Source: a virus (Duplodnaviria > Heunggongvirae > Uroviricota > Caudoviricetes). From it: 64,000 nt of DNA. The position numbers were made by a program, and so were the translations under genes. The notes under the pieces were generated by a model that searched no databases, had not been told where the DNA came from, and saw only the letters and a program-made list of their open reading frames with translations. Location of the stretch: IMG/VR virus record IMGVR_UViG_3300030434_000006, positions 955 through 64,954 of that record; one strand, written 5' to 3'. Each line of letters starts with the position of its first letter. Positions within the stretch are counted from its first letter, which is position 1. This document shows, piece after piece, positions 34,729 to 63,047 of this stretch.

Positions 34729-35136
34729 ATGGAGCAAAAGGTGAGCAGTATAGAGGTGGCCGATCTGTTGATTCGCAGAAAGGACTACATGACCGTGGCC
34801 GAAGTCACTAAGCTGGTGGAAACGGAATACCCGCACCTGTTGGTGAACACCGGCATTATCTCGAATATCCTGCGCTCCTTTGTCCGTTCGCCGTTCGCAC
34901 AATGCCGGGTACATCCCGATGCCTATCCCCGGCAGTATCGCCTGGAGGCCATGAACGGCTACATCTTCAAGGTGCGGGGAAGAAAGGATCTTAATTACGA
35001 CTCGCTGTGTGTGGAAAGCGCCACAAAGCGTGTGCTGCAGAAGAAGGAAATGGAACAGCTGTCGGTATGCGCGCTGGCGCGGCAACTGATGGATATGTGC
35101 AGACGGGGAAGGATGGAAAATGCCCCGCTCATGTGA
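34729..35136 (+). CDS. hypothetical protein, possible small DNA-binding regulator
   Basis: 135 aa; same orientation as, and upstream of, the pacA-like gene. Confidence 0.25.
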   Translation: MEQKVSSIEVADLLIRRKDYMTVAEVTKLVETEYPHLLVNTGIISNILRSFVRSPFAQCRVHPDAYPRQYRLEAMNGYIFKVRGRKDLNYDSLCVESATKRVLQKKEMEQLSVCALARQLMDMCRRGRMENAPLM

Positions 35137-35151: not shown

Positions 35152-35694
35152 TTAGCCTGAAACTCTGTGGCGTTGCAGCTTTAAGGCGCTTGATGTAACA
35201 CCTTTGGGTGCTTCTTCTACACGCTTGGATGAATTGTCATCCGGATTATGAGTAACGCTAACCGCCTCCGGCTGACTCTCGGCCTGTGCTGGTTGAGCAG
35301 CTTCGCTGGAAGGCTTCTCAGCCTGTACCGGTTGAGCCTTTTCAGCTGGTGACGCTCCAACGACAGCGGCTGCTGGTTCTGCCACTGGTGCCTGTACCGG
35401 CTGCATACCCGGCGTCGTTGGAGTGATTTCACCCAGCGTGACGCTGATTAGCGAAAGCAGACGCTGCAGCCGCTCACGCTTGGTCATTGTCATGAACGTA
35501 TCACCATACGTCTCTTCCATCAGCGCGAGGATTGGTGCAAGCCCCATCTGCTCCACTGCATAGCCCGAACGAATAACGTTTATCACAAAGGCGCGCTTTG
35601 CGGGATTCGTCTTCAGCTTGTTATAGTCTTCGAGCATAGAGCGGCTGAACAGCCCGCCTTCCTCCAGCCCGGTAAATTTAATCACCTGTGCCAT
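35152..35694 (-). CDS. parR: ParR-like partition adaptor
   Basis: 180 aa directly downstream of parM, separated by 2 nt; structured N-terminus, then a disordered P/A/Q-rich C-terminus. Confidence 0.45.
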   Translation of the reverse strand: MAQVIKFTGLEEGGLFSRSMLEDYNKLKTNPAKRAFVINVIRSGYAVEQMGLAPILALMEETYGDTFMTMTKRERLQRLLSLISVTLGEITPTTPGMQPVQAPVAEPAAAVVGASPAEKAQPVQAEKPSSEAAQPAQAESQPEAVSVTHNPDDNSSKRVEEAPKGVTSSALKLQRHRVSG

Positions 35695-35696
35695 AG

Positions 35697-36824
35697 TTAG
35701 CCCTTCTCGTTGGTCCGGCTACGAATATCGCTTACAGACGCCGCACTACTGATATCAGCCAGAATATCGGCCTCAGAGGCCTGCAGCGCCAGATAGACGC
35801 CACGCGCAATAGCCATTTCAGGGTTATTCGGCACAACAACAACATCATGCCAGCCATCGGTGTGATCGGTCAGTCCTGGCAGCTTGCCAGCGATATAGTT
35901 AGCGCCGCCACCAACAACCAGAACAACGTCAACATCGCGGGTATTACGGTGAAGCGCACGCACGTCCTGCCAGATTTTCTCTGCCAGCTCAGATGCGGCC
36001 TGGTTGATGACTTCACTGATATCAATACGCTTCGATTTAGCGCTTTCCAGACGGGAGCCGATATAGCCCTGACGAATGATGGCATCAACGCTATCAACGC
36101 TGAGATCGGATGCGCCGAACGATTTACCCAGCTTTTCTTCAAACTCTGGCAGCAGCGCATGTACACGCTCGATCATCTTCTGAACGCCGTGCTCATAGCT
36201 GGCCTTTTTCACAGGCATCAGGTCTTTATCAACCAGGGCGATATCACAGGTAAAGCGTCCCAGGTCTACTACCAGCGTCTGCTCAGCGTCAGCCAGCTCC
36301 GGATTATCAGCCTGTGCCGAAACGATGGCAGGAACGGCTTCAGGGAATACTTCGACGTGAATGATGTTAGCCGGTTCGCTACCGTCGCGGTAATTGGTGA
36401 CAGGCGTCTTCAGGCTGGCAACCTTCTCACGGATACGGGCTTCGTTAATCACACCCATAGCGCTGTAGAACTGATTCACCGGCAGCGTTTCACCAATGAT
36501 CACATCACGGCCGCCGAGGCCAGCACGGTGCAGTGCATCGGCAATCAGGACGCGGTGAGCGGGTGAGACCTGATAGTTAGGGTCGCAGGTGTCATACAGG
36601 TCATAGCCTTTCTTCATGACGGTGTAGGCGCGTTCTTTGCCGCTGGCATCCGTTGTCAGCCACGTTGACTGGGATTCAGCCGCGAAAGACTGCTGGTGGC
36701 CTTCCAGTATCAGTGAAGGGGTGACAGAGGTGATCCAGCGCCCTGTGCCATCTTCAGCATAAGTCAGCGCTACGTTGCCAGAGCCTGCGTCTACTGCCAC
36801 TAAAACAGCTTTATTCTTAGTCAT
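35697..36824 (-). CDS. parM: ParM/StbA actin-like plasmid segregation ATPase
   Basis: 375 aa; N-terminal VAVDAGSGNV phosphate-1 motif and actin-fold spacing (DLGRFTCD, VVGGGANY). Confidence 0.65.
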   Translation of the reverse strand: MTKNKAVLVAVDAGSGNVALTYAEDGTGRWITSVTPSLILEGHQQSFAAESQSTWLTTDASGKERAYTVMKKGYDLYDTCDPNYQVSPAHRVLIADALHRAGLGGRDVIIGETLPVNQFYSAMGVINEARIREKVASLKTPVTNYRDGSEPANIIHVEVFPEAVPAIVSAQADNPELADAEQTLVVDLGRFTCDIALVDKDLMPVKKASYEHGVQKMIERVHALLPEFEEKLGKSFGASDLSVDSVDAIIRQGYIGSRLESAKSKRIDISEVINQAASELAEKIWQDVRALHRNTRDVDVVLVVGGGANYIAGKLPGLTDHTDGWHDVVVVPNNPEMAIARGVYLALQASEADILADISSAASVSDIRSRTNEKG

Positions 36825-36834
36825 TTAATTTTAT

Positions 36835-36850
36835 CCAGTGGTTAATTTCA
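36835..36850 (-). promoter_or_regulatory. TGAAATTAACCACTGG element 10 nt upstream of the parM start (family copy b)
   Basis: identical to the 57099..57114 copy. Confidence 0.45.
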
Positions 36851-36931
36851 TACTACGAACGAGGAATCAAAGTACCACATATTCCGGTTTTGTCCATTAG
36901 TAAGGCACCAAAACGGCGCGTTAGCTGCGAT

Positions 36932-36953
36932 AGTGATCATTAATGTGATCACT
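36932..36953. promoter_or_regulatory. palindrome AGTGATCA-TTAATG-TGATCACT with two GATC sites
   Basis: perfect 8-bp arms; lies in the parM / pacA divergent intergenic region. Confidence 0.4.
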
Positions 36954-36956
36954 ACA

Positions 36957-36974
36957 AATTACAGACTCCATACC
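36957..36974 (+). promoter_or_regulatory. late-operon conserved element AATTACAGACTCCATACC (copy 4)
   Basis: ends 35 nt before the pacA-like ATG at 37010. Confidence 0.5.
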
Positions 36975-37009
36975 ATCCCGGTTTATTGGCCTCTTTTGAA
37001 CGATAAACC

Positions 37010-39921: not shown

Positions 39922-41001
39922 TTATTTGCTCTGATTTTTCAGGTTACTTTCCAGCTCACGCAGCAGGCTATACATGTTGCGCATGTTCTTTCCGGCGCGT
40001 GGCTCTTCGCCACCGTAACGCTTGCGGATCTCCGGCATGGTCAGCTGTTCGGTATCGCCTGCAGCCACCTTCTTATCCAGCAGCGCCCAGTCGTATGCTT
40101 CCAGCTTTTCCAGCAGGTCACGGTTTTCGTCAATTTCAGCCTTAAACAGGCGTGCTTCCTGCGCGTCCTTTGCCTTAGCAATCTTCGCCTTCGCCCTGGT
40201 CTCAAACTGAGTGCGGCGCGTGTTCACCGTATACGCCACAGAAGAACGCTGAGCGGCCAGCTGCTTGCTGTAATCCACGTCTTCCATCGTGTACAGCTTG
40301 GCATTCGGCAGTACTGAGCATGCCACGGGAGAAATCGCGTCGTAAGAGGACGTGTACCCGCCGTTACTGTTAACGTTCAGCCTGATATCACGCTCTTTGT
40401 TCAGGTTTTCACCGTAGATAAGCATGCCGTGCGCGCCATAACGGAACGATTCGCCCTCATCTTTTTTGTCGTCGGTGTAGCGCGCAGTCACCTGAATGTC
40501 AGAGTAGTTGCTGGTGCGGGCGCGGTACATTGCGCCTGGCGCTGCGGCTTCAAACGCCTTCATTTCGTCTTCCAGCGACATGATGGCACCGGCAGCGAAC
40601 GGAACCTTACGCAGCTTGCCGATCTGCTTTTCGTAGCGCTTCAGGATATCTTCACGGGTGTGGTTCGCGGTCGCCGTAGCGCGGAAGCGGTTGATAGTGA
40701 CTTGCTTCGGCTCAACGATCAGGGTCGGCACCGGCAGGTAAAGGTTAGTCGTGATCGCGATAGAACGCGCCTGGCGTTTCTCTTCTGCCAGGTCGGCAAA
40801 GCTCTGCCAGTCGGCCAGCAGGTGTTCTGCGCGCTGAAAGGTCTTCTTATCAGTGATAAAGCCGATCGGGCGGCATTCCTCACCCATAGCGTTTTTATCA
40901 ATGAAAATCTGGTTGTCCGTGATGAGAGTCAGCCACTCTTTTTGTACCTGTAGAAAATGTTTATAGCGCTTCTCAAATTCTACATCGCTGAAGTTAGGCA
41001 T
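39922..41001 (-). CDS. hypothetical protein divergent from the lox/cre-like locus
   Basis: 359 aa; occupies the position that c1 holds relative to loxP-cre in P1, but shows no recognisable similarity. Confidence 0.3.
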   Translation of the reverse strand: MPNFSDVEFEKRYKHFLQVQKEWLTLITDNQIFIDKNAMGEECRPIGFITDKKTFQRAEHLLADWQSFADLAEEKRQARSIAITTNLYLPVPTLIVEPKQVTINRFRATATANHTREDILKRYEKQIGKLRKVPFAAGAIMSLEDEMKAFEAAAPGAMYRARTSNYSDIQVTARYTDDKKDEGESFRYGAHGMLIYGENLNKERDIRLNVNSNGGYTSSYDAISPVACSVLPNAKLYTMEDVDYSKQLAAQRSSVAYTVNTRRTQFETRAKAKIAKAKDAQEARLFKAEIDENRDLLEKLEAYDWALLDKKVAAGDTEQLTMPEIRKRYGGEEPRAGKNMRNMYSLLRELESNLKNQSK

Positions 41002-41611: not shown

Positions 41612-42643
41612 ATGAAACATCTGGCTCAAATAAAGACCGGCGCACTCCCGGCAGAATTAACGCAATTAACGCCGGAAGACATTGCAAATAACCTGCGCAG
41701 ATTCATCGCAGATAAGGCCGCTTATTCCGAGAATACTTTCCGCGACCTGTTATCCGTTATCCGGCGCTGGGCCTTCTGGTGCAACGAGCGCGATGTGGGC
41801 TACCTGCCGATCGACCCCGAGCTGGCGCGGGAGTACTTTCTGCAGATGGCAGAAAGCGGCCTGGCATCGAGCACGATCGACAAACACTATGCCATGATGA
41901 ACATGCTGTGCCGGGAAAGCGGCCTGCCGGATCTCCGGGGAAGCGTGGACCTGAAACGTTCCATGAAACGCATCCGCCGCGAGGCCGTGCTGCAGGGTGA
42001 ACGCACCGGCCAGGCTGTGCCGTTCCGCCTGCCGGACCTGCAGCTGCTGTCGCACCTCATGGGCCGCTCCGACCGGCTGACCGATCAGCGAAACCTGGCA
42101 TTTCTGTTTGTGGCCTACAACACCCTGTGCCGTATGTCCGAACTCAGCCGCATCCGGGTGCGCGACCTGGATATCAGCGACAGTGGCCATGTGGTGATCA
42201 ACCTGTCACACACTAAAACGATGGTGACGGCCGCGGGCGTGGTCAAGCACCTCAGCCGCGCCGCTGCCGGTCATCTGATGCACTGGCTGGAGCTGTCCGG
42301 GCTGATTCATCATCCGGACGCGATGGTTTTCGGTCCGGTCCGCCACAACAACACGGCTGGCGTGTCGGAAAAGCCAATGTCTGCACCGGCGACCGAGAAG
42401 ATTTTCAAAGACGCATGGGATCTGCTGGGGAAAGAGCCGGTGCAGGATAACAAAGGCCGCTACGCCAAATGGTCCGGCCACAGCGCCCGCGTGGGTGCCG
42501 CGATGGATATGGCCGAACGTGACGCGACGATTACTCAGATCATGCAGGAAGGCACCTGGCAGGATCCGAAAACCGTTATGCGCTACCTTCGCCGCTCTGA
42601 AAGTCAAAAAGGAAAAATGTCTGGCATACTGGACGGAGAATAG
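41612..42643 (+). CDS. Cre-like tyrosine site-specific recombinase
   Basis: 343 aa (same length as P1 Cre); NLAFLFVAYNTLCRMSELSRIRVRDLD matches Cre NLAFLGIAYNTLLRIAEIARIRVKDIS; WSGHSARVGAAMDMA matches WSGHSARVGAARDMA; catalytic Tyr in VMRYLR. Confidence 0.85.
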   Translation: MKHLAQIKTGALPAELTQLTPEDIANNLRRFIADKAAYSENTFRDLLSVIRRWAFWCNERDVGYLPIDPELAREYFLQMAESGLASSTIDKHYAMMNMLCRESGLPDLRGSVDLKRSMKRIRREAVLQGERTGQAVPFRLPDLQLLSHLMGRSDRLTDQRNLAFLFVAYNTLCRMSELSRIRVRDLDISDSGHVVINLSHTKTMVTAAGVVKHLSRAAAGHLMHWLELSGLIHHPDAMVFGPVRHNNTAGVSEKPMSAPATEKIFKDAWDLLGKEPVQDNKGRYAKWSGHSARVGAAMDMAERDATITQIMQEGTWQDPKTVMRYLRRSESQKGKMSGILDGE

Positions 42644-45754: not shown

Positions 45755-46132
45755 ATGGCCTTTCAGAGCCCCGCCCAGAACTACACTGAAACGCGCCTGA
45801 ACCTGGGCGATCTGGTATCTCTTTCCCCCTTCTCAACCTATCTGATGCGCAGCGAATCCGACTGCCCCGGCGCCGGGATTGTCAAAGGGTCCGTGCTGGC
45901 CATCGATCGCGCCCTGACGCCGGCGCACGGCCAGCTTATAGTGGCGGAGTTCGAAGGCGACCTGACACTGAGGCGGCTGTTGCTCAATCCGGTTCCCGCC
46001 CTCCAGGCACTGGACGCGGACGAGACAGTAACACTGCTCGATGTGAGCCAGGAGCTTCCTGTGTGGGGTGTGGTGGCTTATGCCTTAACCGATGTGGCCG
46101 GGATCGGCTTTAATGGGCCTGCAGGAGGTTAA
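45755..46132 (+). CDS. UmuD-prime-like protein (pre-processed form, P1 HumD-like)
   Basis: 125 aa; S24 peptidase C-terminal fold without the N-terminal cleavable arm; SD GGAG; directly upstream of umuC. Confidence 0.55.
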   Translation: MAFQSPAQNYTETRLNLGDLVSLSPFSTYLMRSESDCPGAGIVKGSVLAIDRALTPAHGQLIVAEFEGDLTLRRLLLNPVPALQALDADETVTLLDVSQELPVWGVVAYALTDVAGIGFNGPAGG

Positions 46133-46134
46133 GC

Positions 46135-47397
46135 ATGTTTGCGCTGGCAGATGCCAATAACTTCTATGCCTCCTGTGAAACCGTGTTCAGGCCCGATCTG
46201 CGCGGTAAACCGATTGTCGTCGTTTCGAACAACGACGGCTGCGTGATCGCACGTTCGGCGGAGGCAAAGCGCCTGGGTATCAAAATGGCGGCGCCGCTGT
46301 TTCTGAATGAGCGTTTTTTCAGGCAGAACGGCGTGCATGTGTTCAGTTCCAATTATGAGCTGTACGGCGATATGTCAGCCCGGATGATGGCCATACTGGG
46401 CGAGATGGCTGCTGGACAGGAGGTTTACTCTATCGACGAGTCATTTCTGGACGTCACCGGCATCAGCAATGTGATCCCGCTTGAGACGTTCGGACACCAG
46501 ATGCGTGAGCGTATCCGAAAGGAAACAGGGCTGATAATTGGCGTAGGGTTCGGACCAACGAAGACGCTGGCCAAGCTGGCTAATCATGCTGCGAAAAAAT
46601 GGACGCAGACAAAGGGCGTGGTCGATTTATCCAGCCGGACCCGGCAGCGAAAGCTGCTTCACCTGACCGACGTCGGCGATATCTGGGGTATCGGCCCGCG
46701 CATTACCAAGCGCATGCACCAGCTGGGCATCACCACTGCTCTGCAACTGGCGGACAGCAATATCAGCATGATCCGGAAAAACTTTGACGTCATCGTTGAG
46801 CGTACCACCCGCGAGCTCAATGGCGAGTCCTGCATCGCACTGGAAGACGCGCCGCCGCCAAAGCAGAACATCCTTAACTCGCGCTCATTTGGTGAGAAGA
46901 TCACGGACCTGGAGGACATGAAGCAGGCCGTCACACTCTACGCCACCCGTGCCGGAGAAAAGCTGAGAGAGCAGAACTCGCGTTGCCGACATATCAGCGT
47001 GTCGATCTCTACCGCTAGGCACGCAAACGAGCCTCAGTATTCGAATACCGCCTCATGCGTCTGCGACTACCCCACCAGCGACACTCGGGACATTATTGAG
47101 TCTGCGCTGCGCGGGCTGAGCACTATCTGGCGCGACGGCTACCGGTACGCAAAAGCAGGCGTCATGCTGGGGGATTTTTACCAGTCTGGCGTGGCGCAGT
47201 TTGACATGTTCAGTGAGCAGCAGCCGCGTGCAAATGCAGATGCTCTGATGGCCGCGCTGGACGCTATCAATCGCTCCGGGAGGGGAAAGGTATTCTTCGC
47301 GGGACAGGGAGAGCAAGACAGCGCATGGCAGATGAAGCGAGAAATGCTGTCGCCTCGATATACCACGCGGCTGAAAGATATACCACGCATAAAATAA
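46135..47397 (+). CDS. umuC: Y-family DNA polymerase subunit UmuC-like
   Basis: MFALADANNFYASCETVFRPDLRGKPIVVVSNNDGCVIARSAEAKRLGIKM is near-identical to the UmuC N-terminus. Confidence 0.85.
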   Translation: MFALADANNFYASCETVFRPDLRGKPIVVVSNNDGCVIARSAEAKRLGIKMAAPLFLNERFFRQNGVHVFSSNYELYGDMSARMMAILGEMAAGQEVYSIDESFLDVTGISNVIPLETFGHQMRERIRKETGLIIGVGFGPTKTLAKLANHAAKKWTQTKGVVDLSSRTRQRKLLHLTDVGDIWGIGPRITKRMHQLGITTALQLADSNISMIRKNFDVIVERTTRELNGESCIALEDAPPPKQNILNSRSFGEKITDLEDMKQAVTLYATRAGEKLREQNSRCRHISVSISTARHANEPQYSNTASCVCDYPTSDTRDIIESALRGLSTIWRDGYRYAKAGVMLGDFYQSGVAQFDMFSEQQPRANADALMAALDAINRSGRGKVFFAGQGEQDSAWQMKREMLSPRYTTRLKDIPRIK

Positions 47398-48592: not shown

Positions 48593-49402
48593 ATGAGCGA
48601 AGGCACTATGGTAGTAACCGCACCCCCTGTAAGTTCTGGCGGAGCTCCTGCCGGTTTTGGTAGCTATAACCCAGGCGGCGCTACCTCTGTCCCGCCTGGT
48701 CAGGCACAAGCACAGATGTTTCATGAAGTTCTCAATGGTAGCTTTTTCAATAGCCAAAATGCTGTGGATTACGTTAATAAGAACGATCTTACGTCTCTAC
48801 TACAGTGGGTTAAAAACAATTGTTATCTGAACGATTGCATCGTAGGCCCGACAATGGGTACTACTGGCATTTCAGCAATGGCGGGTAATGGTGCTCAGTG
48901 GCGTGACTGGCAATTAGGCAATATGAGCGATCAGTTAAGTGGTGGTCCTTATAGCGTAGTTTCTGCACTGGCTAATTTCTTTTGGGGTAACGGTCGTCCA
49001 ATGAATGTTGATATCAACAACATTGGTTTACAGCTGGCACCGCAGAAAATTCTTGGCTTTAACGATCAGTTAATGGCTATGAGCGCACCGGGCAGCTACA
49101 ACTTCAGCCTTAAATTTGCTTATGACACCGGCGTAGACAGCCTTGTATCAAATTACTATCTCGGAAGTATTACGCTTCAGATGGAAGGCACGTTAAACCG
49201 TGATGCGTCTGGTCAGTGGACATTCAACGGTGTGGTCCGTGGCTATCAGGATAAGTATGACTTCAATGCCTCCACGCACCGTACTAAGACTAATGAAGAC
49301 ATGACAACTATCGGTAACTTTCTCGGCCAGCAATTTCAGGGCGTAACTTACCCGATCAATATTAATGGCCAATTAGATGGTGTTTCTTTCTCCGGTCAAT
49401 AA
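48593..49402 (+). CDS. hypothetical protein (low-GC island)
   Basis: 269 aa, strong SD AAGGAG; Gly/Asn-rich, beta-rich composition. Confidence 0.35.
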   Translation: MSEGTMVVTAPPVSSGGAPAGFGSYNPGGATSVPPGQAQAQMFHEVLNGSFFNSQNAVDYVNKNDLTSLLQWVKNNCYLNDCIVGPTMGTTGISAMAGNGAQWRDWQLGNMSDQLSGGPYSVVSALANFFWGNGRPMNVDINNIGLQLAPQKILGFNDQLMAMSAPGSYNFSLKFAYDTGVDSLVSNYYLGSITLQMEGTLNRDASGQWTFNGVVRGYQDKYDFNASTHRTKTNEDMTTIGNFLGQQFQGVTYPININGQLDGVSFSGQ

Positions 49403-49554: not shown

Positions 49555-50442
49555 ATGATTTACGATTGTTTCCTGTACTACGACGAAGATATGCTTTTAG
49601 AGCTCCGCCTCAATACGCTTTATGAGCATGTTGATCGGTTCGTGATCGTGGAATCGCTATACACGTTTACCGGCAAGCGGCGCGACAAACTGAGCTTTGA
49701 TATCGAAAAGTTTGCGGCTTTTCGTGACAAGATTATCTACGTTGTGAATGACTCTGTGCCAACCATATATCAGCATGAGTTTGTGTCCGGTAGTTCTGTA
49801 GTAAAAGCCGGTGAGTCGGACCCATGGGAAAACGAGACAATAGCGCGTAATTCCATCATGCGCGGCCTCGACTCCGCCCAGGACGACGATATCATTATGA
49901 TATCTGACGTTGATGAAATACCCCGCCCGGGAGCCCTGAAGCAGTTCAGCCCGCGTCTTCTCTGCACGACGCTATATCTGAATTTCTATAACTATAAGTT
50001 CAACGTCCAGGTGCTCAACGACGACGGTTCTGCGCGTCTTTGCCGTCTTCCGAAGATGACCACAATGAAAAACCTAAAAGGCTTCTTCCACGGCCAGCCA
50101 GAGCTGCTGCGCAACGTTAAACGCAAAGGTACACCCATAAGGGAAAGCTGGTGGCGTTGGAAGCTGCTGAAGATGCGTACCAAGATAGTTGAAGACGCTG
50201 GCTGGCACTTCTCATGGGTAATGACCGATGCCCGGATAAGCGAGAAGATGGAGACGATTTCCCACACGGAAAACAATCTCCCGGAGTTCAATAATCCGGA
50301 TCACATCCGCCGCTGTGTTGAGCAGAATATAGATATCTGGAACCGGCCCCGGAAAATGGTTATCAGGCCCATAACGATTGAGTTCATGCCCGCCTGGCTG
50401 GTGGTTAATCAGGCCCGATTTAATGACTTTATAAAACGATAA
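49555..50442 (+). CDS. glycosyltransferase family 17-like (GnT-III-like)
   Basis: N-terminus MIYDCFLYYDEDMLLELRLNTLYEHVDRFVIVES and a DVDEIP DXD motif, as recalled for the bacterial GT17 family; low GC. Confidence 0.5.
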   Translation: MIYDCFLYYDEDMLLELRLNTLYEHVDRFVIVESLYTFTGKRRDKLSFDIEKFAAFRDKIIYVVNDSVPTIYQHEFVSGSSVVKAGESDPWENETIARNSIMRGLDSAQDDDIIMISDVDEIPRPGALKQFSPRLLCTTLYLNFYNYKFNVQVLNDDGSARLCRLPKMTTMKNLKGFFHGQPELLRNVKRKGTPIRESWWRWKLLKMRTKIVEDAGWHFSWVMTDARISEKMETISHTENNLPEFNNPDHIRRCVEQNIDIWNRPRKMVIRPITIEFMPAWLVVNQARFNDFIKR

Positions 50443-57594: not shown

Positions 57595-58860
57595 TTATTT
57601 CATCCTTACGATGGGTAACTCTTCCCACCGCGTCAGATAGCGCGGAGATAACATTTCCCTCTTCATCTGGTAGGCCGGATTGACACCCTGACCGGCAATA
57701 AAAAGTGTGCCGCGCTGGTAGCTATTCAGCTTGTCCATCACGGCCATCAGCTTATCGCTGCCGGGGCGCGGCGGTGACTCGTCAAAAAGGTTCAGTTGCT
57801 GCTCTGAGCCGCAGAACTCCCCAAGCATCACTCCGGCCTTCGCATACTCATAGCCGTCCCGCCAGATAGCTCTGAGGCCGCGCACGGCTGCATCAATCAG
57901 ATCGCGGGTATCCTGTGTGGCCGTCGTAAACGAATGGCTGGCGCCGCGTGAATAATACGGGCGGCGCGGATCGTGTTTGCTGGTCTGGATGAATACCGTG
58001 ATATTCCGGCAGTACTGCTTTTCACGCCGCAGCTTTTCACCGGCGCTGGTGGCAAAGAAGCACACGGCGTTACTTACTTCATCCAGGCTGGTGAGGCGTT
58101 TGCCGAACGAACGGCTTACCACCAGCTGCTGCTTAGTCGGCGGGTTCTCTTCGAGCTCGAAGCAGCGTTCGCCGCGCAGCTCCCGTACGGTGCGCTCCAG
58201 CATCACATTGAAGTTTTTGCGGATCATGGTTGTGTCAGCGCGGGCAAGGTCGAGCATCGTCTTGATGTTCATCAGCTGCAGCCTGGCCCCTATCTTTCTG
58301 CCGACGCCCCACGTCTCGGAGACGTCGAGCAGTGATAGCAGCTTGTCGCGCCGTTTCGGGTCGGTCAGCACCACCACGCCGCCTGTTTTAGGCCAGGTCT
58401 TTGCTGCGTGCGTGGCTACCTTGCAGAGCGTCTTTGTCTCGGCTATCCCTATTCCGCACTTCATCGTGGTGTGCTGGATAACGGTGCGCCGGATCTCTTC
58501 TCCGAATGTCTGGAAGTCCACCAGCTTTTCCATGCCGTCCAGAGAGCCAAACACTTCGTCGATCGAGTACGCTTCCAGGTTCGGGACATACTCGCCCACT
58601 ATCGTATGGAAACGCTTGCTGAATGCGTCATACAGCGTGTAGTTGCTGCTGAACACCACCACGCCGTAGCGCCGGATGGTATCGCGGATTTTAAACAGCG
58701 GATCGCCCCGCTTCAGGCCTACGTTTTTCGCCTCGCGGTTCAGCGCCGCAATACAGCCGTCATTGTTGGTCGCCACCACGACAGGACGCCCGTACAGGTC
58801 CGGCCTGAATGCCAGCTCGGCCGACACGTAGAAGGCGTTAACGTCACTGTGCAGGAACAT
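57595..58860 (-). CDS. umuC: Y-family DNA polymerase subunit UmuC-like (second copy)
   Basis: MFLHSDVNAFYVSAELAFRPDLYGRPVVVATNNDGCIAALNREAKNVGLKRGDPLF. Confidence 0.85.
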   Translation of the reverse strand: MFLHSDVNAFYVSAELAFRPDLYGRPVVVATNNDGCIAALNREAKNVGLKRGDPLFKIRDTIRRYGVVVFSSNYTLYDAFSKRFHTIVGEYVPNLEAYSIDEVFGSLDGMEKLVDFQTFGEEIRRTVIQHTTMKCGIGIAETKTLCKVATHAAKTWPKTGGVVVLTDPKRRDKLLSLLDVSETWGVGRKIGARLQLMNIKTMLDLARADTTMIRKNFNVMLERTVRELRGERCFELEENPPTKQQLVVSRSFGKRLTSLDEVSNAVCFFATSAGEKLRREKQYCRNITVFIQTSKHDPRRPYYSRGASHSFTTATQDTRDLIDAAVRGLRAIWRDGYEYAKAGVMLGEFCGSEQQLNLFDESPPRPGSDKLMAVMDKLNSYQRGTLFIAGQGVNPAYQMKREMLSPRYLTRWEELPIVRMK

Positions 58861-59290
58861 TGTCAGTACGGTGGATGACGTATGTCACCACCCCCCATAT
58901 TTCCAGACCATCAGGCTCGACAGGGATCGGCTTATAGCGCGGGTTCATGGCCAGCAGCATCGGTACTGGCCTCAGCTGCAGCTTTTTTACCGTAAACTCC
59001 CCGTCCACAGAGGCAATCACGATCTGGCCGTCTGCCGCCGCCTTCGATTTATCCACCACCAGCAGATCGCCGTCAAAAATACCGGCCCCGATCATTGACT
59101 CACCCTCGCAGCGCACAAAATAAGTGGCCGTTTTGGCCCTGACGCAATACTCGTTCAGATCCAGCGGAGTGTCTTCGTACCCGATGGCAGGAGACGGAAA
59201 ACCCGCTGCTACCGTTTCAATAAACTGCCTGAAAGCCTGTCTGGGCGCGGCTTCGTCAGGTATTGCTATTATCTCTAAGCGCATAATCAC
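58844..59290 (-). CDS. umuD: UmuD-like S24 peptidase (full length)
   Basis: 148 aa, GTG start; Ser/Lys dyad context GESMIGAGI...VVDKSK; overlaps umuC by 17 nt. Confidence 0.6.
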   Translation of the reverse strand: MIMRLEIIAIPDEAAPRQAFRQFIETVAAGFPSPAIGYEDTPLDLNEYCVRAKTATYFVRCEGESMIGAGIFDGDLLVVDKSKAAADGQIVIASVDGEFTVKKLQLRPVPMLLAMNPRYKPIPVEPDGLEIWGVVTYVIHRTDNVPAQ

Positions 59291-59301
59291 CCCTCCTTTA
59301 C

Positions 59302-59320
59302 ACTGTATAAAAATACAGTA
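59302..59320 (-). promoter_or_regulatory. LexA box ACTGTATAAAAATACAGTA
   Basis: CTGT-N8-ACAG with an AT-rich spacer, 12 nt upstream of the umuD-like start. Confidence 0.7.
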
Positions 59321-59403
59321 TAAGTTTAGAAGTATGGAATTGACCAGTGGATGATTTCATATAAGAATATGTACATTCTAAAATTTTATGAATTTTTGCA
59401 CTT

Positions 59404-59619
59404 ATGAAATTAGGTTTGAAGCAGATCGAATTAGACAAAATGCGCGGCTATTGGAAAGCAAAAGGCTTTGTAGAAGCAGGCAGAACTGAGCCGCTGCGTA
59501 TCAACCGCACCGACTGCTACATCACGTTTCAACGTAAAAACTGGGTATGTATAGACCTGAAGGGTAATACCATTAATAGCAGGCCAATGCTTTTTGCTCT
59601 GCTAAAACACACACTCTAA
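59404..59619 (+). CDS. hypothetical small protein (low-GC segment)
   Basis: 71 aa. Confidence 0.25.
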   Translation: MKLGLKQIELDKMRGYWKAKGFVEAGRTEPLRINRTDCYITFQRKNWVCIDLKGNTINSRPMLFALLKHTL

Positions 59620-59967
59620 ACTTCCACACAATTCTGCGTTTATCTCTGCCTGCGCAAGTCATGTTCTCATAGCTTGCGCTACCTTCCTCACGACTAATCA
59701 TCAGGGGGCTTTTTTAGTCCTTTTTTTGGTCTGTGACATTTACAAAAACATTTTTCGGGCTGCAAGGTGCATCGTGGCTGGCTTTGCTCATCTTGCATGA
59801 TTACAGAACGTAAAACCCTATATATGGCGGGCTTGCGCGAGAATAACTGCTACACATATCATCCTGTTTAAGAGAGAGATGGATAGTGCTGTGCCGGTCA
59901 ACACGGACTCCCTGAAAAGCAGGGTAAGATGATTGCAAAAGCCGAGGAAATAGCCTTATTTCAGGCA

Positions 59968-59995
59968 CAAAAAAACCGCCCAAAGGCGGCTTTTT
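59968..59995. terminator. hairpin terminator
   Basis: A8-ccgcc-caaa-ggcgg-ctttttt. Confidence 0.6.
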
Positions 59996-60152
59996 TGAAA
60001 GTGATGCAGCCAGAAGGCTCCACCCTTCTTTCTGCTCACCGGCGAAATTTTTTCTATCCCGCAGGCGATTACTTTGCTCAGGCTCAGTATACGCATAGGG
60101 GTTACGATAACAAGGTCCGTAACAAAATAAGATACACGTCACGTATGTCTTA

Positions 60153-60209
60153 TGTGGATAAACACTACAGCCACGTTCATGGTGAGTAACGTTGTGGATA
60201 AACACTACA
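60153..60209 (+). repeat. two direct 17-bp repeats TGTGGATAAACACTACA, each with a perfect DnaA box (TTATCCACA on the minus strand)
   Basis: copies at 60153 and 60193; a degenerate iteron-like TTCATGGTGAG lies between them. Confidence 0.6.
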
Positions 60210-60517
60210 TCTTGGGGTTATTGAGTATTACACCATCAATATACAGGCCTGAACTAGATGATTTATTGATATGCGGCAAGCGATATTTATACCTAAATCG
60301 CAAATATACAGTTAGGTAACATTGCATTTGTAGGTAATCATATATCTGTTCCACGTCACCAGGCACTCCAATCCTGGCACCGGTGAACGCATGGCGTGGC
60401 CACTAAAATTCCGTAAAGCTCGTAGGCGATTACTTTGCTCAAAGTATCTCTGCGGGTCTGATGTAATAACGTCGCCGGTGGCGCGATTCATCAGCGGAAC
60501 GACAGAGGAAAGGCCAA

Positions 60518-60655
60518 ATGAGTCGATTAAAAATCGTCTCCCTGTCTGTGTCAGTACTTTTGACACTTGCAGGAGTGGTTGCAGCTTCTGGTAGTGCTGG
60601 ATGGTCTGTAACGACAAACATCATTACCCAAATCACCGTTAACCACGGCAAATAA
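60518..60655 (+). CDS. small secreted-peptide candidate (45 aa), not in the ORF track
   Basis: MSRLKIVSLSVSVLLTLAGVVAASGSAGWSVTTNIITQITVNHGK; SD GGAAAGG; signal-peptide-like N-terminus; terminator follows. Confidence 0.3.
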   Translation: MSRLKIVSLSVSVLLTLAGVVAASGSAGWSVTTNIITQITVNHGK

Positions 60656-60656
60656 A

Positions 60657-60684
60657 ACAAGCCGCCTTCGGGCGGCTTTTTTTA
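60657..60684 (+). terminator. rho-independent terminator
   Basis: gccgcc-ttcg-ggcggc followed by T7. Confidence 0.75.
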
Positions 60685-60699
60685 TGCTCTTTCCGCCAT

Positions 60700-61135
60700 G
60701 TTGTCAGATTCATGGTAGTCAGCGCCAATGTTGCTCTGTTCATGGTGAAGAGCCTCTATTCCCGGAAATTCAGCATAACTCCAGCCGTAGCTGGTGGACT
60801 TACCATGAATCCAGCAACATCCCCATGAAACCAGCAACATTCTCCGTTAAGCATGGCCTAAGCTCTTTGAGTGCTTTCGTCATGGTCATAGCCTTGCATA
60901 GCTACTGTGTCAGAGTTGTTGCTGGTTTCATGGTGAGTGCCTGAAGGAGCATGGTGTACATTGCTGGTTTCATGGTAATTCGCTATATAAATCACAGTAA
61001 ATGTTGTTGGTTTCATGGTAACGAAGGGCTTTCGAGCAAAAAATACTCTGTATCGAATGACCACTAGCATTAATCGCCGGTACTCCAGCAACGCTTCCAT
61101 GAAACCAACAACACCAGCCATGAAACCAGCAATTA
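60700..61135. repeat. incA-like control locus: 7 clear plus about 2 degenerate iterons CCATGAAACCARCAAY, in both orientations
   Basis: copies at 60802(+), 60823(+), 60917(-), 60961(-), 61005(-), 61096(+) and 61118(+); lies immediately 3-prime of repA, as in P1. Confidence 0.75.
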
Positions 61136-62017
61136 TTATTCTTTGTGTGGCAGAAGGTCAGGCTTACGTGAGTGAATCTGGAAGTAGACCGCGCCATTCT
61201 TCTTAACTTCTGTAAACGACAGGTATCCAATGTCAGCCAGCTCTTTCATGGCTTTACGGACAACGTTGTTCTGAGTGCTGATAGTGGAGTTCAGGTTGAG
61301 GCGATCACGAAGACGCTCTAACGACACTTGTAGGAAGCCGGTAGGCAGACTCTCAATGTACACATAGAGAGCCTGTGCCGACTCTTTACGCGGCAGTGCC
61401 TGGATTGCTTTTAGCTGGAGTAACACCTTGTGATCAAAGGCGTAAAGCTCCCATAGCCGGGAATCCCCTTCCAGAGTGATGATGTCTTTCTCAGTATCAA
61501 AATGGGCGCTATTAAGCAGGTGCGTAATCGTCGCTTTACTGCCGTCTTTATTTTTAAACGAGACAACAAGCGAGGCCAGTCTTAGAAATGAGTTGAAGAA
61601 GCGATCACGCGAACGCTGGTTAATATCATCGACGGCGATTCCACAGAGCTTTGCAAATTCGGTAAACGGTAGCTTAATGCGGTTGCTATCAGCGCCGTAC
61701 TTACTGAATGCCCGGATAGCACCAATCCACGTCTTAAAATCAGTGCTCATATCGAGCCTGCTGCCCTTAATCATGATATTGGTGTAACCCTCAGCTTTCG
61801 CTATCTCAAGCTGGCCGAAGTCTTCAGAGGCATCAATAGTAGCATTGCCACGCTGGGGCTTATTGCGGACGGCTGGCACAAATACACCCAAACGCATCAA
61901 CGCTATCGGCTGCACAGTCCGATTTGCTGTAGGTGTCAGTGTATAACTTTTAGCTTCCTGCTCAGCGCTATACACCAGAGCATCGCCTATCGTCTTGATT
62001 TCTTCGTCGTTTTCCAT
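61136..62017 (-). CDS. repA: P1-type plasmid replication initiator RepA
   Basis: 293 aa; NRTVQPIALMRLGVFVP, FGQLEIAKAEGY, RLDMSTDFKTWIGAI, WELYAFDHKVLLQ, LPRKESAQALYVYIESLP and HSRKPDL align with P1 RepA (286 aa). Confidence 0.85.
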   Translation of the reverse strand: MENDEEIKTIGDALVYSAEQEAKSYTLTPTANRTVQPIALMRLGVFVPAVRNKPQRGNATIDASEDFGQLEIAKAEGYTNIMIKGSRLDMSTDFKTWIGAIRAFSKYGADSNRIKLPFTEFAKLCGIAVDDINQRSRDRFFNSFLRLASLVVSFKNKDGSKATITHLLNSAHFDTEKDIITLEGDSRLWELYAFDHKVLLQLKAIQALPRKESAQALYVYIESLPTGFLQVSLERLRDRLNLNSTISTQNNVVRKAMKELADIGYLSFTEVKKNGAVYFQIHSRKPDLLPHKE

Positions 62018-62057
62018 CGAAACAACCTTCTATCGGTCAATGTGGGTAATTAGCTGT

Positions 62058-62300
62058 CCTACCATGAAACCAGCAACACCCTACCATGAAACCAACAACA
62101 TTCACCATGAAACCAACAATGTTTACCATGAAACCAGCAATGTCTACCATGAAACCAGCAACGCAAAACGTGAAATTTATATTTAAAATCATGTAATTAC
62201 ATCAACGGTGATCTTCTTTGATCTAAATAGGATCTATATAGGATCGATTTATATGATCTATCCAGTGGATAAGTGGATAACCTGCCGTGCTGATTAACTA
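62058..62300. other. oriR-like origin: 5 direct 21-bp iterons, AT-rich segment with 5 GATC, two DnaA-box-like repeats
   Basis: iterons at 62061, 62083, 62104, 62125 and 62146; GATC at 62210, 62220, 62231, 62242 and 62255; AGTGGATAA x2 at 62263..62280. Confidence 0.75.
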
Positions 62301-62358
62301 AGTGCCATAACCAGTGGACAATTACGGATTGCTTTACAGATTCCGCGAGGTGATCAAC

Positions 62359-62380
62359 AATCTAAAAAATATTTTAGATT
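62359..62380. promoter_or_regulatory. perfect 9-4-9 palindrome AATCTAAAA-AATA-TTTTAGATT
   Basis: 11 nt upstream of the ATG at 62391; same half-site family as 42647 and the IRs at 28364/29754. Confidence 0.45.
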
Positions 62381-62390
62381 TGGTTAAATC

Positions 62391-63047
62391 ATGGAAAGTG
62401 CAGATTTTCAGGCCGCACGGGAAAAGCAGGTAAAAGCACAGCAACGCCAACGAGAAAGACACGCAGCAAAACTAGCTGACCCGGAGTTTCGCCAGCAGCA
62501 GTACGCAAAGCAGAAAGCCAGCAGTAGCAGGATGCTTGCCAAACAAATTGAAAAGCGTAATTCCCCGGAGTGGATCGCACAGCAAAAAACCAAAGCGGCA
62601 AAACGCGCTGTAAGCGCATCTGAGCGTCTGAAAGAAAAAAAACCAGCACCAGTAGCAGCGAAACGGCAAACACGCGCCAGCACGTCAGGCAGAGGCCTTA
62701 AAGGACGCACACCGACCGCTGCCGAGCGCGTTGTTATGGATGCGCTGGGAAAGCTGCCCTGCATTGCCTGCCTCCAGCACGGGAAAGAGTCATTGCTTAT
62801 CAGCCTGCATCACATCGAAGGGCGAACTAAACCAGGCGCGCACCTTTTGCAGATCCCCCTTTGTGATCACCACCACCAGCACGCGGCACCAGCCGCAATT
62901 CGTGCAGATTTCCCCTGGCTAGTACCTGTACATGCGGACGGAATTACAGGCGGCAAGGCTGAGTTCTCCCGGCATAACGGCACTGAGAGTGAATTAATGG
63001 CTAAAGCCTATGTGCTGGCGGGTATAGATTTGATGCTGAATAACTAA
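62391..63047 (+). CDS. HNH-like nuclease-domain protein, possibly Ref-like
   Basis: 218 aa; disordered K/R/Q-rich N-terminal third, then a Cys/His cluster CIACLQHGKESLLISLHHIEGRTK...CDHHHQH; architecture recalls P1 Ref. Confidence 0.3.
   Translation: MESADFQAAREKQVKAQQRQRERHAAKLADPEFRQQQYAKQKASSSRMLAKQIEKRNSPEWIAQQKTKAAKRAVSASERLKEKKPAPVAAKRQTRASTSGRGLKGRTPTAAERVVMDALGKLPCIACLQHGKESLLISLHHIEGRTKPGAHLLQIPLCDHHHQHAAPAAIRADFPWLVPVHADGITGGKAEFSRHNGTESELMAKAYVLAGIDLMLNN

What the first reader, a model, noticed from the sequence alone, without database searches (positions are those of the whole stretch)
60153..62300. P1-type R replicon recombined with a ParMR (type II) partition system
Reading the minus strand, the layout is DnaA boxes, an AT-rich stretch with 5 GATC, 5 evenly spaced 21-bp iterons, repA, and then 7-9 iterons in mixed orientation. 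This reproduces the P1 oriR-repA-incA layout, and RepA aligns with P1 RepA. However, the iteron sequence (CCATGAAACCAGCAAC) is new, and partition is by ParM/ParR rather than ParA/ParB. The partition operon is located away from repA, between the SPFH locus and the terminase genes. Additional perfect DnaA boxes in 17-bp direct repeats lie beyond incA (60153 and 60193).
Basis: partly seen in the sequence, partly recalled or inferred. Interest (0 to 1): 0.5.

Follow-up and report, generated by a model that had tools for sequence, protein, structure and literature searches.

The report
P1-type plasmid replicon with new iterons
This is the plasmid-replication module of a P1-like phage-plasmid from Pantoea-type bacteria: it is built like phage P1's own replicon but has different initiator-binding repeats and an actin-like (ParM) partition gene elsewhere in the genome, a combination already present in sequenced relatives, so it is an ordinary new member of a known kind.

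Summary
On the minus strand lie two overlapping DnaA boxes (62264-62280), an AT-rich stretch with five GATC, five iterons spaced 21/21/21/22 bp (62062-62162), a DnaA-like box, repA (62017..61136) and nine incA-like iterons in mixed orientation (61133..60700).

RepA is 49% identical to P1 RepA. The DnaA-box/GATC part aligns with P1 oriR at nucleotide level. Only the iterons differ.

The window is a P1-like phage-plasmid (lpa, pacAB, c1, cre, ref, C4 RNA). Its nearest relatives are 84-96 kb Pantoea plasmids.

ParM (35697-36824) sits between lpa and pacA, which are adjacent in P1. No ParA or ParB was found. "ParR" rests on position only, and no centromere was identified.

The same rep/par arrangement occurs in pEuc3, pPA-MXU-90 and IMG/VR contigs. 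A StbA/ParM gene in a P1-like phage (D6) and the separation of rep from par are already published.

The window's iteron type keeps a family-wide TTCATGG core. Its other half differs, and the window-specific RepA substitutions cluster in the WH2 domain, which suggests a separate incompatibility type.

The two perfect DnaA boxes at 60153 and 60193 are not conserved. They lie inside a candidate small-RNA/small-protein module, not in the replicon.

Verdict: new member of a known kind, low to moderate interest.

The parts
62264..62280 (-). Pair of DnaA boxes (TTATCCACT twice, sharing one T) at the outer end of the origin
   Evidence: The string GATCTATCCAGTGGATAA(T)GTGGATAA is invariant between the window, pEuc3, P1 and JK004. 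P1 annotates the equivalent 18 bp as a DnaA binding site. The pair is present in all relatives examined.
62163..62263 (.). AT-rich stretch with five GATC (62210, 62220, 62231, 62242, 62255); inferred unwinding region and Dam/SeqA target
   Evidence: Sequence. GC is 0.30-0.32. The stretch aligns with the five annotated Dam sites of P1 oriR. Five GATC are kept in the five relatives that have a 71% or more identical RepA; Citrobacter L021 has four in the cluster.
62062..62162 (+). Five origin iterons (core CCATGAAACCAGCAAC as written on the + strand), spaced 22/21/21/21 bp
   Evidence: P1 has the same number and the same 21/21/21/22 spacing read toward repA, as do six related replicons.
62041..62049 (-). 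DnaA-like box TTACCCACA between the iterons and the repA start
   Evidence: It is conserved in pPA-MXU-90. P1 has TGTGGATAG at the equivalent place (sequence), and Citrobacter L021 has a perfect box there.
61136..62017 (-). repA, a Rep_3-family (WH1-WH2) initiator of 293 aa
   Evidence: Pfam Rep3_N and Rep3_C. PHROG 775 at 2e-119. 48.7% identical to P1 RepA, E 3e-72. 99% identical to pPA-MXU-90 RepA and 80% to pEuc3 RepA.
60700..61133 (.). incA-like array of nine iterons in mixed orientation (++ --- ++ --), beginning 2 bp after the repA stop codon
   Evidence: The same 2-3-2-2 pattern occurs in pPA-MXU-90, and 8-10 copies occur in the IMG/VR relatives. P1 incA also has nine iterons abutting repA, three in the origin orientation and six opposite.
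35697..36824 (-). parM, an actin-like partition ATPase of 375 aa
   Evidence: Pfam StbA_N 6.9e-19, ParM C-terminal domain 3.8e-11. PHROG 691 'partition protein' 6e-48. About 60% identical homologues sit at the same lpa-pacA site in pEuc3 and other 84-96 kb plasmids.
35152..35694 (-). Candidate ParR adaptor (180 aa): helical N-terminal ~90 aa plus a Pro/Ala/Gln-rich tail
   Evidence: The assignment rests on position only: its ATG lies 3 bp after the parM stop, and the pair is conserved in pEuc3 (49% identity over 89 aa). No Pfam, NCBIfam or PHROG hit. AF2 pLDDT 55, and no Foldseek match.
36825..36925 (.). parM-proximal upstream region: presumed parM promoter and candidate centromere (imperfect palindrome at 36883-36918)
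   Evidence: This half of the intergenic region diverges from pEuc3 together with the ParMR allele, while the pacA-proximal half is nearly identical. No iterated repeats were found. The assignment is inferred.
60153..60209 (-). Two perfect DnaA boxes in 17-bp direct repeats 40 bp apart; real, but not a conserved part of the replicon
   Evidence: Absent from pPA-MXU-90, pEuc3 and L009. One box is intact and one degenerate in L010.

Best explanation
The region is the plasmid-prophage (R-type, theta) replicon of a P1-like phage-plasmid of Pantoea/Erwiniaceae.

**Inferred mechanism, by homology with P1.**

- RepA monomers bind the five phased origin iterons.
- Host DnaA binds the boxes on both sides of the array.
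- The AT-rich GATC stretch is opened. Its methylation state (Dam/SeqA) limits re-initiation.
- RepA represses its own promoter, which overlaps the repA-proximal iteron.
- The nine downstream iterons titrate RepA and pair with the origin (handcuffing), which holds copy number low.

The part that interacts with host factors is conserved with P1 at nucleotide level. The iteron and the RepA WH2 domain have diverged together. The replicon should therefore be compatible with P1 (IncY), and probably with the pEuc3-type relatives.

Segregation is inferred to depend on a type II ParM cassette inserted between lpa and pacA, not on the parAB-parS operon that follows incA in P1.

Shown here: the sequence anatomy, the homology and the conservation across relatives. 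Inferred: every functional step.
For: **Anatomy and statistics.**

**Match to P1.** Annotated P1 has a DnaA site, 5 Dam sites, 5 incC iterons at 21/21/21/22 bp, repA and 9 incA iterons abutting repA. The window matches this element for element.

**RepA homology.**

**Origin homology.** In the alignment with P1, JK004 and pEuc3, the GATC/DnaA-box part is conserved and the iterons are replaced.

**Conservation across independent elements.**
- pPA-MXU-90 has the same iteron and the same incA pattern.
- Seven IMG/VR contigs carry the same iteron.
- pEuc3, L018 (RepA cluster P0019, Pantoea sp. aB), a Chimaeribacter contig, L020 and a Citrobacter contig have the same scaffold with other iterons.

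**RepA changes that track the iteron.** The window-type RepA differs from all other clade members at a cluster of about 10 positions within residues 243-269. That stretch lies inside the Pfam WH2 match at 232-276. The iteron differs in one half only.

**P1-like context.** lpa, pacA/B, c1, cre and ref; C4 RNA; a pac-like TGATCA array aligning with P1 pac.

**Partition.**
- ParM is intact.
- lpa and pacA are adjacent in P1 but are separated here by the parR-candidate/parM cassette, as in pEuc3.
- No ParA or ParB was found.

**Literature.** In P1-type replicons the iterons determine replication incompatibility. A 73%-identical RepA with P1-like iterons is predicted to be IncY, and P1 displaced that plasmid under selection (PMC10999674).
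Against: - No experiment exists. Autonomous replication, copy control, Dam and DnaA dependence and incompatibility are all inferred from P1.
- No consensus sigma-70 promoter for repA was found inside the iterons by the simple scan. Only a weak TTGCTG-16-GCTAAT candidate overlaps iteron 1.
- The two outermost incA copies are degenerate (3-4 mismatches).
- The ParR identity and the centromere are unverified.
- About 30 kb of the element lies outside the window, so a second rep or par system there cannot be excluded directly. The only check was the annotation of pEuc3, whose PLSDB gene table is incomplete.
Confidence: 0.85

Rival explanations
1. The replicon is extended by the two perfect DnaA boxes at 60153 and 60193. 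With the adjacent AT-rich stretch, they would form an auxiliary DnaA-loading or titration site, or a second origin, that acts with oriR.
For: There are two perfect TTATCCACA boxes 40 bp apart in perfect 17-bp repeats. About 0.5 perfect boxes are expected in the whole window. GC is 0.31-0.35 immediately beside them. P1 itself uses DnaA boxes at both ends of its origin (PMC4980987).
Against: The boxes lie about 500 bp beyond incA, behind a terminator and a small gene. They are absent from pPA-MXU-90, which has 99% identical RepA and the same iterons, and from pEuc3 and L009. One box is degenerate in L010. They sit in the variable spacer of a separate sRNA/small-ORF module.
Confidence: 0.07
2. 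The repA-iteron region is a decaying remnant, and the prophage is maintained by another replicon outside the window or by integration.
For: The window covers only about two thirds of the element. The outermost incA iterons are degenerate.
Against: The 293-aa frame is intact. The closest cluster is 98% identical with 46 member sequences. The five origin iterons, the five GATC and the DnaA pair are kept with exact spacing in more than 10 independent elements. The relatives are circular 84-96 kb plasmids, and this is the only Rep annotated in the pEuc3 regions examined.
Confidence: 0.04
3. The ParM-like gene is not the partition motor of the plasmid prophage. It would instead serve a phage-cycle or other cytoskeletal role, with segregation relying on something else.
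For: No parC repeat array was found and the adaptor could not be recognised. ParM homologues also occur in small integrated-type phages such as P88 and Xuanwuvirus.
Against: The protein matches ParM/StbA profiles over its full length. The two-gene operon is conserved at the same site in many low-copy 84-96 kb plasmids that lack ParAB. The P1-like phage D6 is annotated with StbA/StbB stability genes.
Confidence: 0.1

Closest known systems
Phage P1 R replicon (oriR-repA-incA; IncY)
   Same: The order and numbers of elements are the same: a tandem DnaA-box pair, five GATC in an AT-rich stretch, five iterons at 21/21/21/22 bp, a DnaA-like box before repA, a Rep_3 RepA (49% identical), and nine downstream iterons starting at the repA stop. 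The DnaA/GATC segment aligns at nucleotide level.
   Different: - The iteron sequence is unrelated: CCATGAAACCAGCAAC against GATGTGTGCTGGAGGGAAA.
- incA is 435 bp with a ++ --- ++ -- pattern and 21/42/95-bp spacings. P1's is 285 bp with three copies in the origin orientation, six opposite, and ~31-bp spacings.
- The two DnaA boxes overlap by 1 bp.
- No parAB-parS follows incA.
- The module lies between ref and umuDC, not between upfA and gene 23.
Pantoea phage-plasmids pPA-MXU-90 (NZ_CP141613), NZ_CP134736 and pEuc3 (NZ_CP045723), and IMG/VR contigs of 88-95 kb
   Same: Over window 30001-55000 they are ~87% identical, in blocks covering 69-74% of that query. The organisation is the same: ref - oriR - repA - incA - umuDC, and lpa - parR-candidate - parM - pacA. 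pPA-MXU-90 has 99% identical RepA and the same iterons.
   Different: - The ParM of these plasmids is only ~60% identical, so it is a different ParMR allele at the same site.
- pEuc3 RepA is 80% identical and uses the iteron CCATGAATAGACTAAC.
- The segment between incA and umuD is variable: pPA-MXU-90 has an IS3 there, and only the window and L010 have DnaA boxes.
Phage D6 and D6-like phage-plasmids (P1-g2 of Pfeifer et al. 2021)
   Same: D6 is a P1-like phage whose record annotates StbA/StbB (ParM-type) stability genes. [quoted passage not shown]
   Different: - D6 StbA is only 29.6% identical over half of the window's ParM.
- D6 StbA lies near upfB/upfC, not between lpa and pacA.
- D6 gave no RepA match at E<=1e-3, so its initiator is different.
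R1/pB171-type ParMRC (type II) partition systems
   Same: An actin-like ParM is followed by a small downstream gene in one operon.
   Different: The downstream protein matches no ParR family, and no array of short direct repeats (parC) lies upstream.

Membership tests
P1-type R replicon (Rep_3 iteron replicon with P1 oriR architecture) | The initiator is homologous to P1 RepA (Rep_3, WH1+WH2) | tested here: met
   Pfam Rep3_N and Rep3_C are above their cut-offs. 48.7% identical to P1 RepA over 279 aa, E 3e-72. PHROG 775 at 2e-119.
P1-type R replicon (Rep_3 iteron replicon with P1 oriR architecture) | Five direct iterons with two-helical-turn spacing lie immediately upstream of repA | tested here: met
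   There are five copies at 62062-62162, spaced 21/21/21/22 as in P1.
P1-type R replicon (Rep_3 iteron replicon with P1 oriR architecture) | DnaA boxes flank the iteron array, and an AT-rich stretch with five GATC lies between the outer boxes and the iterons | tested here: met
   The segment aligns with P1's annotated DnaA site and Dam sites.
P1-type R replicon (Rep_3 iteron replicon with P1 oriR architecture) | A second array of iterons in mixed orientation (incA, copy control) lies downstream of repA | tested here: met
   There are nine copies at 61133..60700, seven good and two degenerate. The array is conserved in relatives. P1 has nine.
P1-type R replicon (Rep_3 iteron replicon with P1 oriR architecture) | The repA promoter is embedded in the origin iterons (autoregulation) | tested here: inconclusive
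   The consensus scan found no minus-strand promoter in 62020-62165. By eye there is only a weak TTGCTG-16-GCTAAT candidate overlapping iteron 1.
P1-type R replicon (Rep_3 iteron replicon with P1 oriR architecture) | Autonomous, DnaA- and Dam-dependent low-copy replication | not testable with these tools
   This needs a mini-replicon experiment.
IncY incompatibility group (P1/P7) | Iterons (near-)identical to P1's GATGTGTGCTGGAGGGAAA, with RepA ~72% or more identical to P1 RepA | tested here: not met
   The iteron is unrelated to P1's and RepA is 49% identical. The criterion comes from PMC10999674.
Type II (ParMRC) partition system | An actin-like ParM ATPase | tested here: met
   StbA_N 6.9e-19, ParM C-terminal domain 3.8e-11. 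PHROG 691 at 6e-48.
Type II (ParMRC) partition system | A ParR DNA-binding adaptor encoded downstream of parM | tested here: inconclusive
   A 180-aa gene is in the right place and is conserved with parM. It has no family hit, and its model is low-confidence with no fold match.
Type II (ParMRC) partition system | A parC centromere of iterated short repeats next to the operon | tested here: not met
   No repeat array lies in 36825-37009, and only 15 bp separate the parR-candidate stop from lpa. Only an imperfect palindrome lies at 36883-36918.
P1-like phage-plasmid (Punavirus-related) | P1 hallmark genes and RNAs in P1 order: lpa, pacA/pacB with an internal pac site, c1, cre, ref, and C4 antisense RNA | tested here: met
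   - Lpa Pfam 1.1e-29 and a Cre-size integrase.
- C1 NCBIfam 2.9e-15, which is below the equivalog cut-off.
- PacA PHROG 1711 at 3e-156.
- Ref 1.9e-34.
- C4 RNA 81.8 bits.
- The pac hexamers align with P1.
P1 plasmid-maintenance region (repA-incA-parA-parB-parS) | A type Ia parAB-parS operon immediately downstream of incA | tested here: not met
   tblastn with P1 ParA and ParB gives only E>1. No deviant Walker-A motif occurs in any open frame of 120 aa or more. Downstream of incA lie a 45-aa ORF, a variable spacer and umuDC.

The most novel reading that the evidence does not exclude
Two readings are not excluded by the evidence.

1. Within a RepA clade of 71% identity or more, on an invariant P1-type origin scaffold, one half of the iteron has been swapped (GCTGGTT against AGTCTAT). 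A tight cluster of substitutions in the RepA WH2 domain (residues 243-269) accompanies the swap. This would be a natural, minimal specificity switch that creates a new incompatibility type, and it could be used to read out the Rep-iteron recognition code.

2. The two perfect DnaA boxes sit between a candidate antisense sRNA promoter and the small-protein gene that the sRNA would pair with. They could couple a type I toxin-antitoxin-like stability module to DnaA availability, meaning to replication status.
Probability: 0.15. Interest if true: 0.5.

Novelty: new member of a known kind. Interest (0 to 1): 0.22.

Why it matters
The finding adds an uncharacterised iteron and incompatibility type to the P1/RepFIB-like replicon family. 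It also documents, for plant-associated Erwiniaceae, how P1-like phage-plasmids are put together:

- an invariant scaffold that interacts with host factors (DnaA boxes, Dam sites, iteron phasing);
- interchangeable specificity parts (iteron half plus RepA WH2);
- interchangeable partition cassettes (ParMR alleles at the lpa-pacA junction instead of parAB-parS).

This is useful for replicon typing of Pantoea plasmids. It also helps in predicting which phage-plasmids can coexist, and in building P1-style vectors for Pantoea. It does not change current understanding, because variable plasmid modules on conserved phage backbones are already the published picture.

Tried and rejected
- **Megablast of 60100-62400 against phages** gave no match. 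The element has no close sequenced phage relative, only plasmid records.
- **Two-iteron pattern scan of one genome per species (GTDB)** gave 0 hits. IMG/VR gave nine stretches from seven contigs.
- **Rfam.** Nothing reached threshold in 59300-62450. Only weak sub-threshold minus-strand hits fell around the 59970 terminator.
- **ParR candidate.** It has no Pfam, NCBIfam or PHROG hit. Only 12 close homologues were found. AF2 gave pLDDT 55 and Foldseek-PDB gave nothing below E=1.8. The label therefore stays positional.
- **parC search** with 6-nt seeds found only the TGATCA (pac/late-promoter) repeats.
- **RepA against PDB sequences** gave no hit.
- **RNAduplex of the candidate sRNA against the small-ORF leader** did not discriminate from shuffles. 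I rely instead on the 18-nt perfect repeat and its concerted variation among relatives.
- **The 45-aa peptide** has no plasmid tblastn hit and only three near-identical database homologues.
- **Considered and rejected: an SSU5-type replicon.** The RepA identity is similar (48%), but the SSU5 iterons and origin layout differ and the window's phage genes are P1-like.
- **Considered and rejected: membership of IncY.** The iterons are unrelated.
Full report

Yes. The 16-mer CCATGAAACCAGCAAC (up to 3 mismatches) occurs 14 times in the 64-kb window against 0.63 expected. Thirteen of those matches lie in 60730-62162, and a further degenerate copy lies at 60700.

- Five copies form a one-orientation array at 62062-62162, with start-to-start spacing 22/21/21/21 bp.
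- Nine copies lie on the other side of a 293-aa ORF (62017..61136, minus strand), in the orientation pattern ++ --- ++ --. The two outermost are degenerate.
- Outside the five-iteron array lies a stretch of GC 0.30-0.32 with five GATC at 62210, 62220, 62231, 62242 and 62255.
- Next come two overlapping DnaA boxes, TTATCCACT/TTATCCACT, at 62264-62280.
- A one-mismatch box, TTACCCACA, lies at 62041-62049 between the iterons and the start codon.
- The two perfect DnaA boxes at 60153 and 60193, in perfect 17-bp direct repeats, are also there.

**2. What the ORF is**

Pfam finds both winged-helix domains of Rep_3 initiators: Rep3_N at 6.6e-08 and Rep3_C at 2.8e-04, both above their cut-offs. PHROG 775 matches at 2e-119.

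| Comparator | Identity to window RepA |
|---|---|
| pPA-MXU-90 | 99% |
| pEuc3 | 80% |
| Cronobacter phage JK004 | 50% |
| P1 / P7 | 48.9% over 95% of the query (48.7% over 279 aa, E 3e-72) |
| SSU5 | 48% |

**3. Comparison with annotated P1**

In NC_005856, read in the repA direction, the order is as follows:

- an 18-bp DnaA site;
- five Dam sites;
- five incC iterons at 62773, 62752, 62731, 62710 and 62688, which gives spacing 21/21/21/22;
- repA;
- nine incA iterons, the first abutting the repA stop. Three are in the origin orientation and six are opposite.
- Ppar, parA, parB and parS then follow.

The window reproduces every element up to and including incA, with the same counts and the same 21/21/21/22 phasing. 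In an alignment of the origin's outer part, the string GATCTATCCAGTGGATAA(T)GTGGATAA is invariant between the window, pEuc3, P1 and JK004. The GATC positions align, whereas the iterons are unrelated. JK004 keeps P1-type iterons and has two downstream genes of ParA/ParB size in P1's parAB position before gene_19, but none of these genes is named or was tested. The part of the origin that interacts with host factors is therefore homologous to P1's, and the part that interacts with the initiator has been replaced.

**4. Genomic context**

The window is a P1-like phage-plasmid.

| Feature | Coordinates | Evidence |
|---|---|---|
| Lpa | 34729-35136 | Pfam 1.1e-29 |
| PacA | 37010-38284 | PHROG 1711, 3e-156 |
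| PacB | 38284-39795 | weak Terminase_6N match, below cut-off |
| C1-like repressor | 39922-41001 | NCBIfam 2.9e-15, below equivalog cut-off |
| Cre-size tyrosine recombinase | 41612-42643 | |
| Ref | 62391-63047 | 1.9e-34 |
| C4 antisense RNA | 16586-16673 | 81.8 bits |
| TGATCA array inside pacA | 37162-37228 | aligns with the P1 pac hexamers |

The nearest records are non-mobilizable 90-95 kb Pantoea plasmids: pEuc3, pPA-MXU-90, NZ_CP134736 and NZ_CP134741. Over window 30001-55000 they are about 87% identical, in blocks covering 69-74% of that query.

**5. The partition claim**

ORF 35697-36824(-) is a full-length ParM/StbA (PHROG 691 at 6e-48). It and a 180-aa downstream gene occupy the gap between lpa and pacA. 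In P1 those two genes are separated by only 85 bp, which carry the late promoter LPpac.

pEuc3 has the same lpa - 183-aa gene - parM - pacA arrangement. However, its ParM is only 60% identical and its adaptor candidate 49% identical. The parM-proximal half of the upstream region diverges with them, while the pacA-proximal half is nearly identical. This is the signature of allelic cassette exchange at a fixed site.

- tblastn with P1 ParA and ParB finds nothing better than E=1.1 in the window.
- No deviant Walker-A motif (KGGxxK[ST]) exists in any frame of 120 aa or more.
- No ParA or ParB is annotated in the examined parts of pEuc3, which cover most of that record.

The "ParR" label could not be verified. 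The protein has no family hit. Its AF2 model is low-confidence, with no fold match. No parC-type repeat array exists. Only an imperfect palindrome lies at 36883-36918.

**6. How widespread and how new**

The same replicon is found in pPA-MXU-90, with 99% identical RepA, the same iteron and the same 2-3-2-2 incA pattern. It is also found in seven IMG/VR contigs of 13-95 kb, five of them 88-95 kb. It is absent from the GTDB species representatives.

A RepA clade of 71% identity or more contains about 17 clusters, mostly on 84-120 kb contigs. They come from Pantoea (including Pantoea sp. aB, the source of the Panto/pox recombinase, PMC4957104) and Chimaeribacter. The next step down is ~55% identity, in Citrobacter elements.

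In six replicons examined, the scaffold is the same:

- five iterons spaced 21/21/21/22;
- five GATC in the five replicons with a 71% or more identical RepA (four in the Citrobacter cluster);
- GTTATCCACTTATCCACTGGATAGATC.

The iteron keeps a TTCATGG core in the clade of 71% identity or more, and varies in its other half. In repA sense, the window has GTTGCTGGTTTCATGG, pEuc3/L018/L020 have GTTAGTCTATTCATGG, and Chimaeribacter has TTGGTCTGTTCATGG.

The window-type RepA differs from all other clade members at a cluster of about 10 positions within residues 243-269: NLNSTISTQNNVVRKAMKELADIGYLSFT against NLTSSISAQNLAVRNAMKELEKIGYLTYS. That stretch lies inside the WH2 match at 232-276. This suggests co-variation of one DNA-reading domain with one iteron half. 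It is an inference, not a test.

**7. What is already published**

- Iterons determine replication incompatibility in P1-type replicons. Pantoea plasmids with 73%-identical RepA and P1-like iterons are predicted to be IncY, and marked P1 displaced one of them under selection (PMC10999674).
- By that criterion the window's replicon is not IncY.
- The P1-like phage D6 is annotated with StbA/StbB stability genes.
- D6-like plasmids are described as having parM/stbB-type functions (PMC6799933).
- Pfeifer et al. report that replication and partition are co-localised in P1-g1 but separated in P1-g2. They also report that plasmid modules are the variable part of phage-plasmids (PMC7969092).

I found no paper that describes this particular Pantoea lineage's replicon.

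**8. The extra DnaA boxes**

They are real but are not part of the conserved replicon.

- pPA-MXU-90 has the same RepA and iterons, yet has an IS3 and other genes there.
- pEuc3 and L009 lack the boxes.
- L010 has one intact box and one degenerate.

The alignment of window, L010 and L009 shows what surrounds them. A 45-aa ORF (60518-60655) has a hydrophobic N-terminus and a terminator (60659-60678). Window against L009, it carries 9 synonymous and 4 non-synonymous differences (read).

The ORF's conserved 5' leader (about 60345-60445) is partly repeated upstream (about 60030-60100). The repeat includes an 18-nt perfect direct repeat, AGGCGATTACTTTGCTCA, at 60063-60080 and 60424-60441.

A minus-strand promoter-like site at 60113..60086 is conserved at its -10. 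With the bidirectional terminator at 59969-59996, it would give a ~110-nt RNA. The 5' end of that RNA would be complementary to the ORF's leader.

In L009 both repeat copies carry the same two substitutions. In pEuc3 the equivalent small ORF has a completely different 18-nt repeat pair, CACAAGCAGAAGYTCTCA, 278 bp apart. This concerted variation fits a type I toxin-antitoxin-like, or sRNA-regulated small-protein, module next to the replicon. The DnaA boxes lie in its variable spacer, and their role is unknown.

- RepA binds the five phased iterons.
- DnaA binds the flanking boxes.
- The GATC-rich AT stretch opens and is subject to Dam/SeqA control.
- RepA represses its own promoter. Only a weak candidate promoter overlapping iteron 1 was seen.
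- The nine downstream iterons titrate RepA and handcuff the origin, which sets a low copy number.
- ParM filaments, attached through the downstream adaptor to an unidentified site near 36825-36925, segregate the copies.

**10. Verdict**

The novelty level is "new member of a known kind": an uncharacterised iteron and incompatibility type of the P1 R replicon, in a Pantoea lineage of P1-like phage-plasmids that use ParM cassettes. Interest is low to moderate (0.22). The most interesting residue is the half-iteron/WH2 specificity switch, together with the sRNA/small-ORF module that carries the DnaA boxes.

Noticed in passing
window 59966-60678: This looks like a candidate type I toxin-antitoxin-like, or sRNA-regulated small-protein, module next to incA.

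- It contains a 45-aa ORF (60518-60655, hydrophobic N-terminus, terminator at 60659-60678).
- An 18-nt stretch of the ORF's 5' leader (60424-60441) is perfectly repeated at 60063-60080.
- That upstream copy sits just downstream of a minus-strand promoter-like site (60113..60086) and upstream of a bidirectional terminator (59969-59996).
- Together these predict a ~110-nt antisense-type RNA.
- The repeat pair changes concertedly in relatives: L009 has two shared substitutions, and pEuc3 has a different 18-mer pair.
   Followed up: partly
window 37162-37228 (and 36931-36954): Six TGATCA/TGATCT hexamers at exact 12-bp spacing lie inside pacA and align with the P1 pac-site hexamers. A perfect 9-bp inverted repeat, TAGTGATCA-N6-TGATCACTA, lies 56 bp upstream of pacA. 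It is ~100% conserved with pEuc3 and is possibly the late-promoter or operator element.
   Followed up: partly
window 16586-16673: A C4 antisense RNA (Rfam RF01695, 81.8 bits), the P1 immI regulator, confirms P1-type immunity circuitry.
   Followed up: no
window 30161-30221: A tRNA gene was called by Rfam (47.4 bits). The anticodon was not determined.
   Followed up: no
window 45755-47397 and 57595-59290: There are two umuC-type (IMS family) translesion polymerase genes. One, at 57595-58860, is paired with a umuD-like S24 peptidase gene next to the replicon. The other, at 46135-47397, is preceded by a 125-aa ORF that was not examined. P1 has only humD.
   Followed up: no
window 48593-49402: A 269-aa protein carries a Colicin M catalytic domain (Pfam 9.3e-44) in the accessory region between cre and repA. 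It may be a bacteriocin cargo. It is followed by a family-17 glycosyltransferase-like gene (49555-50442).
   Followed up: no
window 33394-33978 and 27486-28004: Two proteins have Tad2-like (Thoeris anti-defence 2) C-terminal domains (3.7e-10 and 4e-4). pEuc3 annotates the first as an 'MW1434 family type I TA system toxin'.
   Followed up: no
window 28442-29731: A 429-aa protein has an RNA polymerase alpha C-terminal domain (Pfam 8.7e-07), which is unusual cargo for a phage-plasmid. It is conserved in pEuc3.
   Followed up: no
window (whole): GATC is over-represented in the window: 329 against 227 +/- 13 expected, and no shuffle reaches 329. The relative pEuc3 encodes a large Dam-family methyltransferase, and the corresponding region would lie outside the window.
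   Followed up: no
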